Below, piece after piece: positions 42,166 through 49,950 of a stretch of DNA of 64,000 nt. The number at the start of each line of letters is the position of its first letter. The first letter of the stretch is position 1. Made by a program: the position numbers and the translations under genes. The DNA is from Escherichia coli (GTDB lineage: Bacteria; Pseudomonadota; Gammaproteobacteria; Enterobacterales; Enterobacteriaceae), in assembly GCF_003018255.1 (NCBI RefSeq), contig NZ_CP027440.1. One strand, given 5' to 3'. The notes beneath the pieces were generated by a model that ran no database searches, was not told the origin of the DNA, and worked only from the letters and a program-made list of their open reading frames with translations.

Positions 42166-42255
42166 ATGCCTGATGCGCCGCTGACGCGACTTATCAGGCC
42201 TACGAGGTGAACTGAACTGTAGGTCGGATAAGACGCATAGCGTCGCATCCGACAA
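42166..42255. repeat. REP pair (BIME) between prpB and prpC
   Basis: GCCTGATGCGCCGCTGACGCGACTTATCAGGCCTAC and inverted GTAGGTCGGATAAGACGCATAGCGTCGCATCCGACA. Confidence 0.8.
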
Positions 42256-43498: not shown

Positions 43499-44950
43499 AT
43501 GTCAGCTCAAATCAACAACATCCGCCCGGAATTTGATCGTGAAATCGTTGATATCGTCGATTACGTGATGAACTACGAAATCAGCTCCAAAGTAGCCTAC
43601 GACACCGCACATTACTGCCTGCTCGACACGCTCGGCTGCGGTCTTGAAGCTCTCGAATACCCAGCCTGTAAAAAACTGCTGGGGCCAATTGTCCCCGGCA
43701 CCGTCGTACCTAACGGCGTGCGCGTCCCCGGAACTCAGTTCCAGCTCGACCCCGTCCAGGCGGCATTTAACATCGGCGCGATGATCCGTTGGCTCGATTT
43801 CAACGATACCTGGCTGGCGGCGGAGTGGGGGCATCCTTCCGACAACCTCGGCGGCATTCTGGCAACGGCAGACTGGCTTTCGCGCAACGCGGTCGCCAGC
43901 GGCAAAGCGCCGTTGACCATGAAACAGGTGCTGACCGCAATGATCAAAGCCCATGAAATTCAGGGCTGCATCGCGCTGGAAAACTCCTTTAACCGCGTCG
44001 GCCTCGACCACGTTCTGTTAGTGAAAGTGGCTTCCACCGCCGTGGTCGCCGAAATGCTCGGCCTGACCCGCGAGGAAATTCTCAACGCCGTTTCGCTGGC
44101 ATGGGTAGACGGACAGTCGCTGCGCACCTATCGTCATGCACCGAACACCGGCACGCGTAAATCCTGGGCGGCGGGCGATGCCACTTCCCGCGCGGTACGT
44201 CTGGCACTGATGGCGAAAACGGGCGAAATGGGTTACCCGTCAGCCCTGACTGCGCCTGTGTGGGGCTTCTACGACGTCTCCTTCAAAGGTGAATCGTTCC
44301 GCTTCCAGCGCCCGTACGGTTCTTACGTCATGGAAAATGTGCTGTTCAAAATCTCCTTCCCGGCGGAGTTCCACTCCCAGACGGCAGTTGAAGCAGCGAT
44401 GACGCTCTATGAACAGATGCAGGCAGCAGGCAAAACGGCGGCAGATATCGAAAAAGTGACCATTCGCACCCACGAAGCCTGTATTCGCATCATCGACAAA
44501 AAAGGACCGCTCAATAACCCGGCAGACCGCGATCACTGCATTCAGTACATGGTGGCGATCCCGCTGCTATTCGGGCGCTTAACGGCGGCAGATTACGAGG
44601 ACAACGTTGCGCAAGATAAACGCATTGACGCCCTGCGCGAGAAGATCAATTGCTTTGAAGATCCGGCATTTACTGCTGACTACCACGACCCGGAAAAACG
44701 CGCCATCGCCAATGCCATTACCCTTGAGTTCACCGACGGCACACGATTTGAAGAAGTGGTGGTGGAGTACCCAATTGGTCATGCTCGCCGCCGTCAGGAT
44801 GGTATTCCGAAACTGGTCGATAAATTCAAAATCAATCTCGCGCGCCAGTTCCCGACTCGCCAACAGCAGCGCATTCTGGAGGTTTCTCTCGACAGAACTC
44901 GCCTGGAACAGATGCCGGTCAATGAGTATCTCGACCTGTACGTCATTTAA
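43499..44950 (+). CDS. prpD: 2-methylcitrate dehydratase
   Basis: 483 aa; MmgE/PrpD family. Confidence 0.9.
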
Positions 44951-44989
44951 GTAAACGGCGGTAAGGCGTAAGTTCAACAGGAGAGCATT

Positions 44990-46876
44990 ATGTCTTTTAG
45001 CGAATTTTATCAGCGTTCGATTAACGAACCGGAGAAGTTCTGGGCCGAGCAGGCCCGGCGTATTGACTGGCAGACGCCCTTTACGCAAACGCTTGATCAC
45101 AGCAATCCGCCGTTTGCCCGTTGGTTTTGTGAAGGCCGAACCAACTTGTGTCACAACGCTATCGACCGCTGGCTGGAGAAACAGCCAGAGGCGCTGGCGC
45201 TGATTGCCGTCTCTTCGGAAACAGAAGAAGAGCGCACCTTTACCTTTCGTCAGCTGCATGACGAAGTGAACGCGGTGGCCTCAATGTTGCGTTCATTGGG
45301 TGTGCAGCGTGGCGATCGGGTGCTGGTGTATATGCCGATGATTGCCGAAGCACATATTACCCTGCTGGCTTGCGCGCGCATTGGCGCTATTCACTCGGTG
45401 GTGTTTGGGGGATTTGCCTCGCACAGCGTGGCGGCGCGAATTGATGATGCTAAACCGGTGCTGATTGTCTCGGCTGATGCCGGAGCGCGCGGTGGCAAAA
45501 TCATTCCCTATAAAAAATTGCTCGACGATGCGATAAGTCAGGCGCAGCATCAGCCGCGCCACGTTTTACTGGTGGATCGCGGACTGGCGAAAATGGCGCG
45601 CGTCAGCGGGCGGGATGTCGATTTCGCGTCGTTGCGCCATCAACACATCGGCGCGCGGGTGCCGGTGGCATGGCTGGAATCCAACGAAACCTCCTGCATT
45701 CTCTACACCTCCGGCACGACCGGCAAACCTAAAGGTGTGCAGCGTGATGTCGGCGGATATGCGGTGGCGCTGGCGACCTCGATGGACACCATTTTTGGCG
45801 GCAAAGCGGGCGGCGTGTTCTTTTGTGCTTCGGATATCGGCTGGGTGGTAGGGCATTCGTATATCGTTTACGCGCCGCTGCTGGCGGGGATGGCGACTAT
45901 CGTTTACGAAGGATTGCCGACCTGGCCGGACTGCGGCGTGTGGTGGAAAATTGTCGAGAAATATCAGGTTAGCCGCATGTTCTCAGCGCCGACCGCCATT
46001 CGCGTGCTGAAAAAATTCCCTACCGCTGAAATTCGCAAACACGATCTTTCGTCGCTGGAAGTGCTCTATCTGGCTGGAGAACCGCTGGACGAGCCGACCG
46101 CCAGTTGGGTGAGCAATACGCTGGATGTGCCGGTCATCGACAACTACTGGCAGACCGAATCCGGCTGGCCGATTATGGCGATTGCTCGCGGTCTGGATGA
46201 CAGACCGACGCGTCTGGGAAGCCCCGGCGTGCCGATGTATGGCTATAACGTGCAGTTGCTCAATGAAGTCACCGGCGAACCGTGTGGCGTCAATGAGAAA
46301 GGGATGCTGGTAGTGGAGGGGCCATTGCCGCCAGGCTGTATTCAAACCATCTGGGGCGACGACGACCGCTTTGTGAAGACGTACTGGTCGCTGTTTTCCC
46401 GTCCGGTGTACGCCACTTTTGACTGGGGCATCCGCGATGCTGACGGTTATCACTTTATTCTCGGGCGCACTGACGATGTGATTAACGTTGCCGGACATCG
46501 GCTGGGTACGCGTGAGATTGAAGAGAGTATCTCCAGTCATCCGGGCGTTGCCGAAGTGGCGGTGGTTGGGGTGAAAGATGCGCTGAAAGGGCAGGTGGCG
46601 GTGGCGTTTGTCATTCCGAAAGAGAGCGACAGTCTGGAAGACCGTGAGGTGGCGCACTTGCAAGAGAAGGCAATTATGGCGCTGGTAGACAGCCAGATTG
46701 GCAACTTTGGCCGCCCGGCGCACGTCTGGTTTGTCTCGCAATTGCCAAAAACGCGATCCGGAAAAATGCTGCGCCGCACGATCCAGGCGATTTGCGAAGG
46801 ACGCGATCCTGGAGATCTGACGACCATTGATGATCCGGCGTCGTTGGATCAGATCCGCCAGGCGATGGAAGAGTAG
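44990..46876 (+). CDS. prpE: propionyl-CoA synthetase
   Basis: 628 aa; acyl-CoA synthetase AMP-binding motif (YTSGTTGKPKG). Confidence 0.9.
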   Translation: MSFSEFYQRSINEPEKFWAEQARRIDWQTPFTQTLDHSNPPFARWFCEGRTNLCHNAIDRWLEKQPEALALIAVSSETEEERTFTFRQLHDEVNAVASMLRSLGVQRGDRVLVYMPMIAEAHITLLACARIGAIHSVVFGGFASHSVAARIDDAKPVLIVSADAGARGGKIIPYKKLLDDAISQAQHQPRHVLLVDRGLAKMARVSGRDVDFASLRHQHIGARVPVAWLESNETSCILYTSGTTGKPKGVQRDVGGYAVALATSMDTIFGGKAGGVFFCASDIGWVVGHSYIVYAPLLAGMATIVYEGLPTWPDCGVWWKIVEKYQVSRMFSAPTAIRVLKKFPTAEIRKHDLSSLEVLYLAGEPLDEPTASWVSNTLDVPVIDNYWQTESGWPIMAIARGLDDRPTRLGSPGVPMYGYNVQLLNEVTGEPCGVNEKGMLVVEGPLPPGCIQTIWGDDDRFVKTYWSLFSRPVYATFDWGIRDADGYHFILGRTDDVINVAGHRLGTREIEESISSHPGVAEVAVVGVKDALKGQVAVAFVIPKESDSLEDREVAHLQEKAIMALVDSQIGNFGRPAHVWFVSQLPKTRSGKMLRRTIQAICEGRDPGDLTTIDDPASLDQIRQAMEE

Positions 46877-47150
46877 GTCGGATAAGGCGCTCGCGCCGCA
46901 TCCGACACCGTGCGCAGATGCCTGATGCGACGCTGACGCGTCTTATCATGCCTACAGGCCTGAACCGTAGGTCGGATAAGGCGCTCGCGCCGCATCCGAC
47001 ACCGTGCGCAGATGCCTGATGCGACGCTGACGCGTCTTATCATGCCTACAGGCCTGAACCGTAGGTCGGATAAGGCGCTCGCGCCGCATCCGACACCATG
47101 CGCCGATGCCTGATGCGACGCTTACGCGTCTTATCATGCCTACCCACTGT
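46873..47150. repeat. tandem REP/BIME array, 3 units of 94 bp
   Basis: Unit starts at 46873, 46967, 47061 (GTAGGTCGGATAAGGCGCTCGCGCCGCATCCGACA...); yields three spurious minus-strand ORFs beginning MIRRVSVASGI. Confidence 0.9.
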
Positions 47151-47293
47151 TTTTACACAGATAAGTTTCCCCCGCCTTTTTGTACTCATTCATATAAGAA
47201 ATATATCCCCATACGAAAACGATTGCTTTTTATCTTCAGATGAATAGAATGCGGCGGATTTTTGGGTTTCAAACAGCAAAAAGGGGGAATTTC

Positions 47294-48553
47294 GTGTCGC
47301 AAGATAACAACTTTAGCCAGGGGCCAGTCCCGCAGTCGGCGCGGAAAGGGGTATTGGCATTGACGTTCGTCATGCTGGGATTAACCTTCTTTTCCGCCAG
47401 TATGTGGACCGGCGGCACTCTCGGAACCGGTCTTAGCTATCATGATTTCTTCCTCGCAGTCCTCATCGGTAATCTTCTCCTCGGTATTTACACTTCATTT
47501 CTTGGTTACATTGGCGCAAAAACCGGCCTGACCACTCATCTTCTTGCTCGCTTCTCTTTTGGTGTTAAAGGCTCATGGCTGCCTTCACTGCTGCTGGGCG
47601 GCACCCAGGTTGGCTGGTTTGGCGTTGGCGTGGCGATGTTTGCCATTCCGGTGGGCAAGGCAACCGGGCTGGATATTAATTTGCTGATTGCCGTTTCCGG
47701 TTTACTGATGACCGTCACCGTCTTCTTTGGCATTTCGGCGCTGACGGTTCTTTCGGTGATTGCGGTTCCGGCTATCGCCTGCCTTGGCGGTTATTCCGTG
47801 TGGCTGGCCGTTAATGGCATGGGCGGCCTGGACGCATTAAAAGCGGTCGTTCCCGCACAACCGTTAGATTTCAATGTCGCGCTGGCGCTGGTTGTGGGGT
47901 CATTTATCAGTGCGGGCACGCTCACCGCTGACTTTGTCCGGTTTGGTCGTAATGCCAAACTGGCGGTGCTGGTGGCGATGGTGGCCTTTTTCCTCGGCAA
48001 CTCGTTGATGTTTATTTTCGGTGCAGCGGGCGCTGCGGCACTGGGGATGGCGGATATCTCTGATGTGATGATTGCTCAGGGCCTGCTGCTGCCTGCGATT
48101 GTGGTGCTGGGGCTGAATATCTGGACCACCAACGATAACGCGCTCTATGCGTCGGGTTTAGGTTTCGCCAACATTACTGGTATGTCGAGTAAAACCCTTT
48201 CGGTAATCAACGGTATTATCGGTACGGTCTGCGCATTATGGCTGTATAACAATTTTGTCGGCTGGCTGACCTTCCTTTCGGCAGCTATTCCTCCGGTAGG
48301 GGGCGTGATCATCGCTGACTATCTGATGAACCGTCGCCGCTATGAGCACTTTGCGACCACGCGTATGATGAGTGTCAATTGGGTGGCGATTCTGGCGGTC
48401 GCCTTGGGGATTGCCGCAGGCCACTGGTTACCGGGTATTGTTCCGGTCAACGCGGTATTAGGTGGCGCGCTGAGCTATCTGATCCTTAACCCGATTTTGA
48501 ATCGCAAAACGACGGCTGCAATGACGCATGTGGAGGCTAACAGTGTCGAATAA
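47294..48553 (+). CDS. codB: cytosine permease
   Basis: ORF 47240..48553; GTG start at 47294 after AAGGGGGAA; 419 aa; NCS1-family membrane protein. Confidence 0.9.
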
Positions 48554-49826
48554 CGCTTTACAGACAATTATTAACGCCCGGTTACCCGGCAAAGAGGGGC
48601 TGTGGCAGATTCATCTGCTGGACGGAAAAATCAGCGCCATTGATGCGCAATCCGGGGTGATGCCCATAACTGAAAACAGCCTGGATGCCGAACAAGGTTT
48701 AGTTATACCGCCGTTTGTGGAGCCGCATATTCACCTGGACACCACGCAAACCGCCGGACAACCGAACTGGAATCAGTCCGGCACGCTGTTTGAAGGCATT
48801 GAACGCTGGGCCGAGCGCAAAGCGTTATTAACCCATGACGATGTGAAACAACGCGCCTGGCAAACGCTGAAATGGCAGATTGCCAACGGCATTCAGCATG
48901 TGCGTACCCATGTCGATGTTTCGGATGCAACGCTGACTGCGCTGAAAGCAATGCTGGAAGTGAAGCAGGAAGTCGCGCCGTGGATTGATCTGCAAATCGT
49001 CGCCTTCCCGCAGGAAGGGATTTTGTCGTATCCCAACGGTGAAGCGTTGCTGGAAGAGGCGTTACGCTTAGGGGCTGACGTAGTGGGGGCGATTCCGCAT
49101 TTTGAATTTACCCGTGAATACGGCGTGGAGTCGCTGCATAAAACCTTCGCCCTGGCGCAAAAATACGACCGTCTCATCGACGTTCACTGTGATGAGATCG
49201 ATGACGAGCAGTCGCGCTTTGTCGAAACCGTTGCTGCCCTGGCGCACCGTGAAGGAATGGGCGCGCGAGTCACCGCCAGCCACACCACGGCAATGCACTC
49301 CTATAACGGGGCGTATACCTCACGCCTGTTCCGCTTGCTGAAAATGTCCGGTATTAACTTTGTCGCCAACCCGCTGGTCAATATCCATCTGCAAGGACGT
49401 TTCGATACCTATCCAAAACGTCGCGGCATCACGCGCGTTAAAGAGATGCTGGAGTCCGGCATTAACGTCTGCTTTGGTCACGATGATGTCTTCGATCCGT
49501 GGTATCCGCTGGGAACGGCGAATATGCTGCAAGTGCTGCATATGGGGCTGCATGTTTGCCAGCTGATGGGCTACGGGCAGATTAACGATGGCCTGAATTT
49601 AATCACCCACCACAGTGCCAGGACGTTGAATTTGCAGGATTACGGCATTGCCGCCGGAAACAGCGCCAACCTGATTATCCTGCCGGCTGAAAATGGGTTT
49701 GACGCGCTGCGCCGTCAGGTTCCTGTACGTTATTCGGTACGTGGCGGTAAGGTGATTGCCAGCACCCAACCAGCACAAACCACCGTATATCTGGAGCAGC
49801 CAGAAGCCATCGATTACAAACGGTGA
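48543..49826 (+). CDS. codA: cytosine deaminase
   Basis: ORF 48528..49826; GTG start at 48543 overlapping the codB end by 11 nt; 427 aa; amidohydrolase HxH motif (HIHLD). Confidence 0.9.
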
Positions 49827-49864: not shown

Positions 49865-49950
49865 TGCCGGATGCGGCGTGAACGCCTTATCCGGCCTACG
49901 TAGAGCACTGAACTCGTAGGCCTGATAAGCGTAGCGCATCAGGCAATTGT
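49865..49950. repeat. REP pair (BIME) between codA and cynR
   Basis: GCCGGATGCGGCGTGAACGCCTTATCCGGCCTACG and inverted partner GTAGGCCTGATAAGCGTAGCGCATCAGGC. Confidence 0.8.

What the first reader, a model, noticed from the sequence alone, without database searches (positions are those of the whole stretch)
46873..47150. Tandem REP/BIME arrays that mimic protein-coding ORFs
Two arrays (28153-28435 after yahG; 46873-47150 after prpE) each hold three near-identical ~93-94-bp units of palindromic REP sequence. Because of their GC-rich periodicity they produce runs of overlapping ORFs of 60-125 aa with the recurring peptide RRERLIRPT. These are structural RNA/DNA elements (mRNA stabilisers, gyrase and IHF binding sites), not genes. 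The second array begins within the prpE stop codon.
Basis: partly seen in the sequence, partly recalled or inferred. Interest (0 to 1): 0.3.

Follow-up and report, generated by a model that had tools for sequence, protein, structure and literature searches.

The report
Known E. coli REP/BIME repeat arrays
These are two ordinary, well-described E. coli REP/BIME palindromic repeat arrays sitting just after the yahG and prpE genes; they are non-coding, vary from 1 to 9 copies between strains, and produce fake open reading frames that have fooled genome annotators.

Summary
Array 2 (46873-47143) has 2.9 copies of a 94-bp unit, and array 1 (28153-28419) has 2.9 copies of a 93-bp unit. Each unit is a pair of inverted REP palindromes. 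Array 2 pairs a Y-variant with Z2, which makes it a BIME-2. Array 1 pairs Y with Z1 across short linkers, which makes it an atypical BIME; K-12 annotates this element as REP23/yahH. Every array-2 unit scores above the gathering threshold for Rfam RF02564 (naRNA4, the Y/Z2 unit of REP325).

The prpE stop codon TAG (46874-46876) lies inside the GTAG of the first REP. The hairpin stem starts at the next base.

The peptide RRERLIRPT is simply the translated Y-REP core. A 93-bp period (31 codons) keeps the reading frame, giving 104- and 125-aa ORFs. A 94-bp period rotates the frame, giving staggered 61-91-aa ORFs.

Across complete E. coli genomes the prpE-codB array has 1, 2, 3, 8 or 9 units.

Neither array has an IHF site or the BIME-1 L linker. 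"Not genes" is safe for array 2, but array 1's ORF is annotated as yahH, and ribosome footprints (no peptides) have been published for it.

Verdict: already known, low interest.

The parts
44990..46876 (+). prpE (propionate--CoA ligase). The stop codon TAG at 46874-46876 is embedded in the GTAGG of the first REP.
   Evidence: ORF list; annotated as prpE in matching E. coli genomes.
46873..47143 (.). Array 2: a BIME-2-type array with 2.9 copies of a 94-bp unit. Each unit is a Y-variant REP, a 13-nt head-to-head linker ACCGTGCGCAGAT, a Z2 REP, and an 11-nt tail-to-tail linker AGGCCTGAACC.
   Evidence: TRF; consensus searches; unit parsing.
46873..46906 (-). Y-variant REP, copy 1. It reads GTAGGTCGGATAAGGCGCTCGCGCCGCATCCGAC on the + strand. 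As RNA it folds into a hairpin of -17.4 kcal/mol whose stem starts at 46877.
   Evidence: 0 mismatches; fold.
46920..46955 (+). Z2 REP, copy 1 (1 mismatch to the consensus). RNA hairpin of -14.8 kcal/mol.
46967..47000 (-). Y-variant REP, copy 2.
47014..47049 (+). Z2 REP, copy 2.
47061..47094 (-). Y-variant REP, copy 3.
47108..47143 (+). Z2 REP, copy 3 (2 mismatches). This is the last element of the array.
47294..48553 (+). codB (cytosine permease). The GTG start is as annotated in K-12. The array ends 150 nt upstream of it.
   Evidence: Alignment to K-12; ORF list.
26721..28139 (+). yahG. The stop codon is TGA at 28137-28139, and the first REP of array 1 starts 13 nt later.
28153..28419 (.). 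Array 1: an atypical BIME, equivalent to K-12 REP23/yahH, with 2.9 copies of a 93-bp unit. Each unit is Y(+), a 17-nt tail-to-tail linker, Z1(-), and a 13-nt head-to-head linker. Y copies are at 28153 (diverged), 28246 and 28339. Z1 copies are at 28204, 28297 and 28390.
   Evidence: TRF; Rfam RF02564 hits at 28207-28276 and 28300-28369 on the - strand.
28165..28437 (+). A 90-aa ORF inside array 1 that PGAP annotates as 'hypothetical protein' (WP_136746890.1) in strain JNE23-011, whose sequence is identical here.
28469..29419 (+). yahI (carbamate kinase family), downstream of array 1.

Best explanation
Both features are BIMEs (bacterial interspersed mosaic elements). These are tandem arrays of inverted pairs of REP palindromes, the most abundant dispersed non-coding repeat of E. 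coli.

Array 2 (46873-47143) is a BIME-2: a Y-variant REP and a Z2 REP alternate, separated by 13-nt and 11-nt linkers. Array 1 (28153-28419) is an atypical BIME: Y and Z1 alternate across short linkers, and the pair is tandemly repeated.

These points are shown here:
- The elements match the REP consensus sequences.
- They fold into stable hairpins.
- They sit in the 3' untranslated regions of yahG and prpE.
- Copy number at the same site ranges from 1 to 9 units between strains.
- The ORFs are by-products of G+C-rich, stop-poor repeats, and their length is set by whether the period is a multiple of three.

These points are inferred from published work on the same element class:
- On the prpBCDE transcript the array forms a string of hairpins. 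These hairpins block 3'-to-5' exonucleases, which stabilises the upstream message.
- The hairpins also attenuate read-through into codBA, partly through Rho, as shown for the Y/Z2 array REP325.
- The first hairpin starts directly after the UAG, so it should also hinder ribosomes terminating on prpE (the rule of 15 nt or less from Liang, Rudd and Deutscher 2015).
- On DNA, BIME-2 arrays are preferred gyrase binding and cleavage sites.
- Arrays grow and shrink by recombination between units and/or by the REP-associated tyrosine transposase (TnpA-REP/RAYT), which needs the GTAG and the stem mismatch. Both features are present here.

The identity of the elements is about 0.97 certain. That this particular array measurably changes prpE or codBA expression is about 0.5.
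For: Sequence and repeats:
- TRF finds the two arrays.
- REP consensus matches have zero chance expectation.
- Orientation alternates with constant linkers.
- Rfam RF02564 scores 70.2-71.6 bits against a gathering threshold of 59.5 for all three array-2 units on the + strand, and 60.4 and 71.8 bits for two array-1 units on the - strand.

Structure:
- Hairpin energies are -17.4 kcal/mol (Y-variant) and -14.8 kcal/mol (Z2), with z-scores of -3.9 and -5.2.
- The whole array has a z-score of -6.4.
- The Y to Y-variant change is a compensatory stem pair, C-G to U-A.

Strain variation:
- prpE-codB spacers are 235/236, 324/329, 417/420/423, 893 and 985 bp, corresponding to 1, 2, 3, 8 and 9 units.
- K-12 has 4 units at yahG-yahI where the window has 3.

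Context and coding:
- There is no intrinsic terminator between prpE and codB on the + strand.
- No Pfam or NCBIfam family scores above its cutoff for any array ORF.
- PGAP annotates no CDS inside array 2 in the 60 sampled genomes.

Literature:
- BIME classes, copy-number variation and TnpA-REP requirements: PMC3333891.
- REP325 as both terminator and stabiliser, and the genome-wide upstream-biased expression: bioRxiv 10.64898/2026.03.23.713779.
- REPs within 15 nt of a stop codon stall ribosomes: Liang 2015 as summarised in PMC12306157.
- Gyrase affinity is higher for BIME-2 than for BIME-1: PMC1475751.
Against: No expression data for this locus were available, so every functional effect is extrapolated from other REPs.

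The 2026 preprint stresses that REP effects depend on context and that REPs do not uniformly lengthen mRNA half-lives.

The range of 1-9 units at the same site argues that the exact copy number is under little constraint.

I could not read the Liang et al. paper itself and saw only secondary summaries. I do not know whether prpE was on their list.

Confidence: 0.9

Rival explanations
1. The arrays are selfish or neutral repeats with no adaptive role at these loci. They persist and change copy number because of RAYT activity and unequal recombination. Any effect on neighbouring genes is incidental.
For: Copy number ranges from 1 to 9 units at the same site among strains whose prpE and codB are intact. 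In array 2, units 1 and 2 are 100% identical, which indicates very recent duplication. In the window's lineage the degenerate 98-bp founder unit seen in K-12, O157 and others is missing, and the junction falls at a shared GTAGGT. This fits simple recombinational loss. The 2026 preprint reports no uniform effect on half-life.
Against: A hairpin lies within 15 nt of the prpE stop codon in every allele examined: 0 nt in the window's lineage and 5 nt in K-12. The array is never completely absent in the alleles inspected. [quoted passage not shown]
Confidence: 0.3
2. Some of the ORFs inside the arrays are real translated genes. That would make yahH in array 1, and the RRERLIRPT-containing ORFs in array 2, a family of REP-encoded repeat peptides.
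For: yahH (b0322) is a CDS in the current K-12 RefSeq record, and PGAP calls 'protein YahH' or 'hypothetical protein' in many genomes. Ribosome footprints over yahH/X002 were reported in EHEC, with RPKM 56 and coverage 0.61 (PMC4765031). Array 1 has two + strand frames with no stop codon at all. All four nucleotide differences between Y and Y-variant are synonymous in the RRERLIRPT frame.
Against: The same paper has no mass-spectrometry peptides for X002. The y-ome review describes yahH as 'filled with REP23 sites'. No curated protein family scores above its cutoff. Array-2 ORFs change frame with every 94-bp unit, and one-unit alleles lack them entirely. The ORF content changes with every change in copy number. 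RRERLIRPT also appears at isolated REPs at 49874 and 54051, where there is no ORF context. Structured, multi-copy RNA can yield nuclease-protected fragments that look like footprints (inference). The synonymous pattern has a chance probability of about 0.1, and two of the four changes are a compensatory stem pair.
Confidence: 0.04
3. The units are naRNA4-type nucleoid-associated RNAs that bridge DNA cruciforms with HU to compact the chromosome.
For: All three array-2 units exceed the gathering score of Rfam RF02564 naRNA4.
Against: The Rfam model is in effect a model of the generic Y/Z2 BIME-2 unit. The 2026 preprint found that deleting or overexpressing REP325/naRNA4 does not change nucleoid volume, and that REP-REP contacts do not depend on HU.
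Confidence: 0.04
4. The array is the intrinsic (Rho-independent) terminator of the prpBCDE operon.
For: It contains strong G+C-rich hairpins immediately after the last gene. A TTTTT run lies at 47151-47155, downstream of the last Z2.
Against: The terminator scan finds no + strand site in 46700-47400. The T run starts about 8 nt after the CCTAC tail rather than adjoining the stem. Most REPs lack a poly-U tract and behave as partial Rho-dependent terminators.
Confidence: 0.07

Closest known systems
BIME-2 (tandem Y/Z2 REP arrays of E. coli, e.g. REP325 between yjdM and yjdN)
   Same: Array 2 alternates inverted Y-type and Z2 palindromes with short linkers, tandemly repeated, in a 3' UTR between co-directional genes. 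Each unit matches the Rfam model built on the REP325 unit (70-72 bits). Copy number varies between strains, as described for BIMEs (PMC3333891).
   Different: There are 3 units here against 6 pairs (12 palindromic units) in REP325. The Y element is a sub-variant (GTCGG...CCGAC instead of GCCGG...CCGGC) carrying a compensatory stem change. Z2 has one stem mismatch (ATCATGCC). The first palindrome overlaps the stop codon of the upstream gene.
K-12 REP23 / yahH (b0322)
   Same: Array 1 is the same locus (yahG-yahI) and the same Y/Z1 unit. The window's 125-aa and 90-aa ORFs are in the yahH frame.
   Different: The window has 3 units where K-12 has 4. ORF length and sequence differ accordingly.
BIME-1 / RIP-RIB elements (Y + Z1 with an L linker that binds IHF)
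   Same: Array 1 uses the same two REP types, Y and Z1.
   Different: BIME-1 is a single copy with a long, conserved L linker carrying an IHF site. Array 1 is tandemly repeated, with 17- and 13-nt linkers and no IHF consensus. That makes it an 'atypical BIME' rather than BIME-1.
REPs within 15 nt of a stop codon (Liang, Rudd and Deutscher 2015)
   Same: The first hairpin starts 0 nt after the prpE stop codon and 13 nt after the yahG stop codon. Both fall inside the window reported to stall terminating ribosomes (summarised in PMC12306157).
   Different: No translation data exist for these two genes here. The primary paper could not be read.
REPINs / RAYT-mobilised REP doublets (Pseudomonas and others)
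   Same: These are also inverted REP pairs with a conserved GTAG and a stem mismatch, the features TnpA-REP needs for binding and cleavage.
   Different: No RAYT gene was identified in this window. No search for one was made.

Membership tests
REP (E. coli Y / Z1 / Z2 palindromic units) | A 30-40-nt imperfect palindrome matching the Y, Z1 or Z2 consensus | tested here: met
   Eleven of the 12 palindromes match with 0-2 mismatches. The first Y of array 1 needs 4. Zero matches occur in 100 shuffles.
REP (E. coli Y / Z1 / Z2 palindromic units) | A conserved GTAG tetranucleotide 5' of the stem, and a mismatch or bulge within the stem | tested here: met
   GTAGG/CCTAC flanks every copy. The folds show a 2x2 internal loop in the Y-variant and bulges in Z2.
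REP (E. coli Y / Z1 / Z2 palindromic units) | Extragenic location, typically in a 3' UTR | tested here: met
   Both arrays lie between a stop codon and the next gene's start. The only overlap with coding sequence is the prpE stop codon.
BIME-2 | Composed of Y and Z2 REPs in alternating orientation | tested here: met
   Array 2 alternates Y-variant(-) and Z2(+), three times.
BIME-2 | Occurs as tandem copies, with a number that varies between loci and strains | tested here: met
   There are 2.9 copies here, and 1, 2, 3, 8 and 9 in other genomes.
BIME-2 | Specific S linker and s/l/r flanking motifs (Bachellier classification) | not testable with these tools
The linkers here are 13 and 11 nt. The 13-nt head-to-head linker has the same length as the one in the Rfam naRNA4 consensus.
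BIME-2 | High-affinity DNA gyrase binding and cleavage | not testable with these tools
   Literature only (PMC1475751).
BIME-1 | A single Y + Z1 pair separated by the long L linker carrying an IHF site | tested here: not met
   Array 1 has Y + Z1 but is tandem, with 17-nt and 13-nt linkers. No WATCAANNNNTTR occurs in either array. By the definition in PMC3333891 it is an atypical BIME.
Rfam RF02564 naRNA4 | Covariance-model score at or above the gathering threshold (59.5 bits) | tested here: met
   Array-2 units score 70.2, 70.2 and 71.6 bits. Array-1 units score 60.4 and 71.8 bits.
Rfam RF02564 naRNA4 | HU-associated RNA with a role in nucleoid compaction | not testable with these tools
   This cannot be tested here. 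The role itself is disputed by bioRxiv 10.64898/2026.03.23.713779.
Protein-coding gene (YahH-like) | A conserved ORF with protein-level evidence or a curated family | tested here: not met
   No family scores above its cutoff. ORFs change with copy number. The literature has ribosome footprints only and no MS peptides.

The most novel reading that the evidence does not exclude
The REP arrays might be translated as well as structural. Under this reading, array 1 (yahH) and possibly the RRERLIRPT frame of Y-type REPs yield repeat peptides, so one element would act as DNA site, RNA structure and protein. This is the 'triple function' suggested for yahH by Neuhaus et al. 2016. The evidence here does not strictly exclude it. 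Two + strand frames of array 1 have no stop codon. A published footprint signal exists. The Y and Y-variant differences are all synonymous in the RRERLIRPT frame.
Probability: 0.04. Interest if true: 0.55.

Novelty: already known. Interest (0 to 1): 0.12.

Why it matters
The value is mainly for annotation hygiene. REP arrays whose period is a multiple of three generate long stop-free frames that gene callers accept: yahH in K-12, and 'protein YahH' or 'hypothetical protein' in PGAP. Short REP ORFs also circulate in GenBank under unrelated names ('mannitol-1-phosphate 5-dehydrogenase').

Biologically, the locus is a clean natural allelic series. It runs from 1 to 9 BIME-2 units between prpE and codB, and one lineage has the first hairpin touching the stop codon. 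That series could be used to test how REP copy number and stop-codon proximity tune upstream mRNA stability, translation termination and read-through. This applies known ideas and is not a new phenomenon.

Tried and rejected
(1) A REP-mediated truncation of prpE in EPEC E2348/69. Its prpE is 75 bp shorter and also ends in the REP's TAG. The sequence shows an in-frame deletion between two CAGGCGAT repeats inside prpE, unrelated to the REP.

(2) IHF binding. No consensus site occurs in either array.

(3) An intrinsic terminator or a codB promoter inside the array. Neither was found by the consensus scans.

(4) Uniqueness of the 3-unit allele. The top-ranked hit for the 667-bp query has 2 units, but strain DETEC-S792 has a 3-unit allele that also starts at the stop codon. 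The structure is rare but not unique.

(5) Coding selection inferred from the synonymous-only Y versus Y-variant differences. I rejected it as insufficient. Two of the four changes are a compensatory stem pair that is necessarily in phase, and the chance probability is about 0.1.

(6) Reading Liang et al. 2015 directly. The paper is not held. The RepRanger supplements do not list prpE, yahG or codB.

(7) Exact look-up of the longer array ORFs in the 15-billion-protein collection. None was found. This is partly because the translations start with non-ATG codons, so the result is uninformative for those ORFs.
Full report
**What is there**

The window is E. coli. A 1.3-kb query around the finding matches prpE and codB in 5,425 of 5,426 complete genomes.

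Tandem Repeats Finder reports only two long-period arrays in the 64 kb:
- 28153-28419: period 93, 2.9 copies, 92% matches.
- 46873-47143: period 94, 2.9 copies, 98% matches.

In array 2, units 1 and 2 are identical and unit 3 differs at 3 positions. Array-1 units differ at 6-10 positions.

**Anatomy**

Searching with the E. coli REP consensus sequences places every palindrome, with zero matches in 100 shuffles.

Array 2 is three repeats of the following unit:
- A Y-variant REP, reading GTAGGTCGGATAAGGCGCTCGCGCCGCATCCGAC on the + strand.
- A 13-nt head-to-head linker.
- A Z2 REP.
- An 11-nt tail-to-tail linker.

Array 1 is three repeats of Y(+), 17 nt, Z1(-), 13 nt.

PMC3333891 gives the definitions. 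BIME-1 is a single Y/Z1 pair with a long L linker that often carries an IHF site. BIME-2 is a tandem Y/Z2 array with short linkers. Atypical BIMEs are chimeric and tandem. By these definitions array 2 is a BIME-2 and array 1 is an atypical BIME.

Rfam's RF02564 (naRNA4, modelled on the Y/Z2 unit of REP325) scores all three array-2 units at 70-72 bits against a gathering score of 59.5. It scores two array-1 units at 60 and 72 bits.

The individual hairpins are stable: -17.4 kcal/mol for the Y-variant and -14.8 kcal/mol for Z2, with z-scores of -3.9 and -5.2. The whole array folds with a z-score of -6.4.

The Y-variant differs from canonical Y by a compensatory stem change (C-G to U-A) and two loop changes. 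The same variant occurs at 54052, so it is a dispersed sub-family.

**The stop-codon overlap**

prpE ends with TAG at 46874-46876. The repeat unit begins at G46873, so the TAG is the TAG of GTAGG. The hairpin stem begins at 46877.

Comparison of nine other alleles shows this is lineage-specific:
- K-12, J2, SBF22 and Z1323 have TAG followed by a degenerate 98-bp founder unit (GTAGGTTATTGTCGGATGCG...). Its palindrome starts 5 nt after the stop.
- O157:H7 and M11957 have TAA (GTAAGGTATTGTCGG...).
- JNE23-011, EPEC E2348/69, DETEC-S792 and the window lack the founder unit. In them a canonical unit abuts the stop at the shared GTAGGT, which fits loss of the founder unit by recombination between GTAGGT repeats (inference).

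In every allele a hairpin lies within 15 nt of the stop. The first REP of array 1 also starts only 13 nt after the yahG stop.

**Copy-number variation**

prpE-codB spacers fall into these classes:

| Spacer (bp) | Units | Example genomes |
|---|---|---|
| 235-236 | 1 | Z1323, SBF22 |
| 324-329 | 2 | JNE23-011, EPEC, K-12 |
| 417-423 | 3 | window, DETEC-S792, J2 |
| 893 | 8 | O157:H7 |
| 985 | 9 | M11957 |

In a 60-row sample spread over the ranking of 5,441 records, two-unit and one-unit alleles dominate. Three-unit alleles of the window's type are rare. At yahG-yahI, K-12 has 4 units and the window has 3. The locus lengths in the sample indicate fewer than one to four units.

**The ORFs**

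RRERLIRPT occurs seven times in the window, always on a Y-type REP, including the isolated REPs at 49874 and 54051. It is simply the translated Y core.

The arrays are G+C-rich (58% and 62%, against 51% for the window). Stop-codon counts by frame explain the ORF pattern:
- The 93-bp period (31 codons) keeps the frame. Two + strand frames of array 1 have no stops at all, which gives the 125- and 104-aa ORFs.
- The 94-bp period rotates the frame. Every frame of array 2 has 3-5 stops, which gives staggered ORFs of 61-91 aa.

No Pfam or NCBIfam family exceeds its cutoff for any of these ORFs.

The mimicry has fooled annotators:
- K-12 RefSeq carries yahH (b0322) straight through array 1.
- PGAP calls 'protein YahH' or 'hypothetical protein' there in many genomes. 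One is JNE23-011, which is 100% identical to the window at this locus.
- The 33-aa + strand ORF of array 2 is deposited repeatedly as 'mannitol-1-phosphate 5-dehydrogenase'.
- PGAP annotates nothing inside array 2 in the 60 sampled genomes.

**Published evidence on translation**

- For array 1 there is a published claim of ribosome footprints over yahH/X002 (= REP23) in EHEC. The same paper reports no MS peptides for it (PMC4765031).
- The y-ome review describes yahH as 'filled with REP23 sites' (PMC11551758).
- For array 2 I found nothing.

I therefore keep 'non-coding' as the reading for both arrays, with a small residual probability for translation of array 1.

**How it most likely works**

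Shown here:
- The element's identity and structure.
- Its 3' UTR position and its variability between strains.
- The absence of an intrinsic terminator or an IHF site.

Inferred from the element class:
- The Y/Z2 array REP325 stabilises the upstream yjdM mRNA and attenuates transcription into yjdN about 8-10-fold, partly through Rho. [quoted passage not shown]
- REPs within 15 nt of a stop codon stall terminating ribosomes (Liang 2015, via PMC12306157).
- BIME-2 binds gyrase better than BIME-1 (PMC1475751).
- TnpA-REP needs the GTAG and the stem mismatch, and it can recombine BIME units.

Applied to this locus, the array should protect the prpBCDE 3' end, limit read-through into codBA, and dampen PrpE termination. 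Copy number would be set by recombination and RAYT activity. The nucleoid-bridging role attached to the Rfam family name is disputed by the same preprint.

**Verdict**

One listed function (IHF binding) does not apply, and one caveat remains (the yahH footprints). This is a textbook element class at loci already annotated in K-12, so it is already known and of low interest.

Noticed in passing
window 46918-47019 (+), repeated at 47012-47113: The 33-aa ORF MPDATLTRLIMPTGLNRRSDKALAPHPTPCADA, encoded by each array-2 unit, is deposited in GenBank many times as 'mannitol-1-phosphate 5-dehydrogenase' (a cluster of 13 sequences). This is a propagated mis-annotation of a REP ORF.
   Followed up: partly
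K-12 yahH (L004:2270-2587) and window 28060-28434 (+): The 29-position NCBIfam model NF033228 'cell division inhibitor SidA' hits the YahH-frame REP translation at 32.5 and 30.1 bits, just under its 35-bit cutoff. A tiny model is cross-reacting with translated REP sequence.
   Followed up: no
L008 (NZ_LT903847.1, an EPEC E2348/69 derivative), 3' end of prpE: prpE is 75 bp (25 codons) shorter. The cause is an in-frame deletion between two CAGGCGAT direct repeats inside the gene, and it is not linked to the REP.
   Followed up: yes
L013 (M11957) and L014 (O157:H7 SS TX 313-1), prpE stop codon: These lineages use TAA instead of TAG as the prpE stop codon. They carry 9 and 8 BIME-2 units, the longest arrays seen at this site.
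   Followed up: yes
window 46873-47094, 28246-28372, 49866-49899 and 54052-54085: The four nucleotide differences between the canonical Y REP and the Y-variant all fall on third codon positions of the RRERLIRPT frame and are synonymous. Two of them are a compensatory stem pair 27 nt apart. The chance probability is roughly 0.1, so this is a curiosity and not evidence of coding.
   Followed up: partly
window 42168-42203 (+), 49866-49944, 53377-53405 (-), 54052-54085 (-): Other REPs in the window: a single Z2, a Y/Z1 pair separated by 16 nt, a single Z1, and a single Y-variant. I did not examine them further.
   Followed up: no
window 44900-49100 compared with 27953-28619: The best single-piece identity to any of the 5,426 complete E. 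coli genomes around prpE-codA is 98.8% (DETEC-S792). The yahG-yahI stretch, in contrast, is 100% identical to JNE23-011. The source strain appears mosaic and is not itself in the collection.
   Followed up: no
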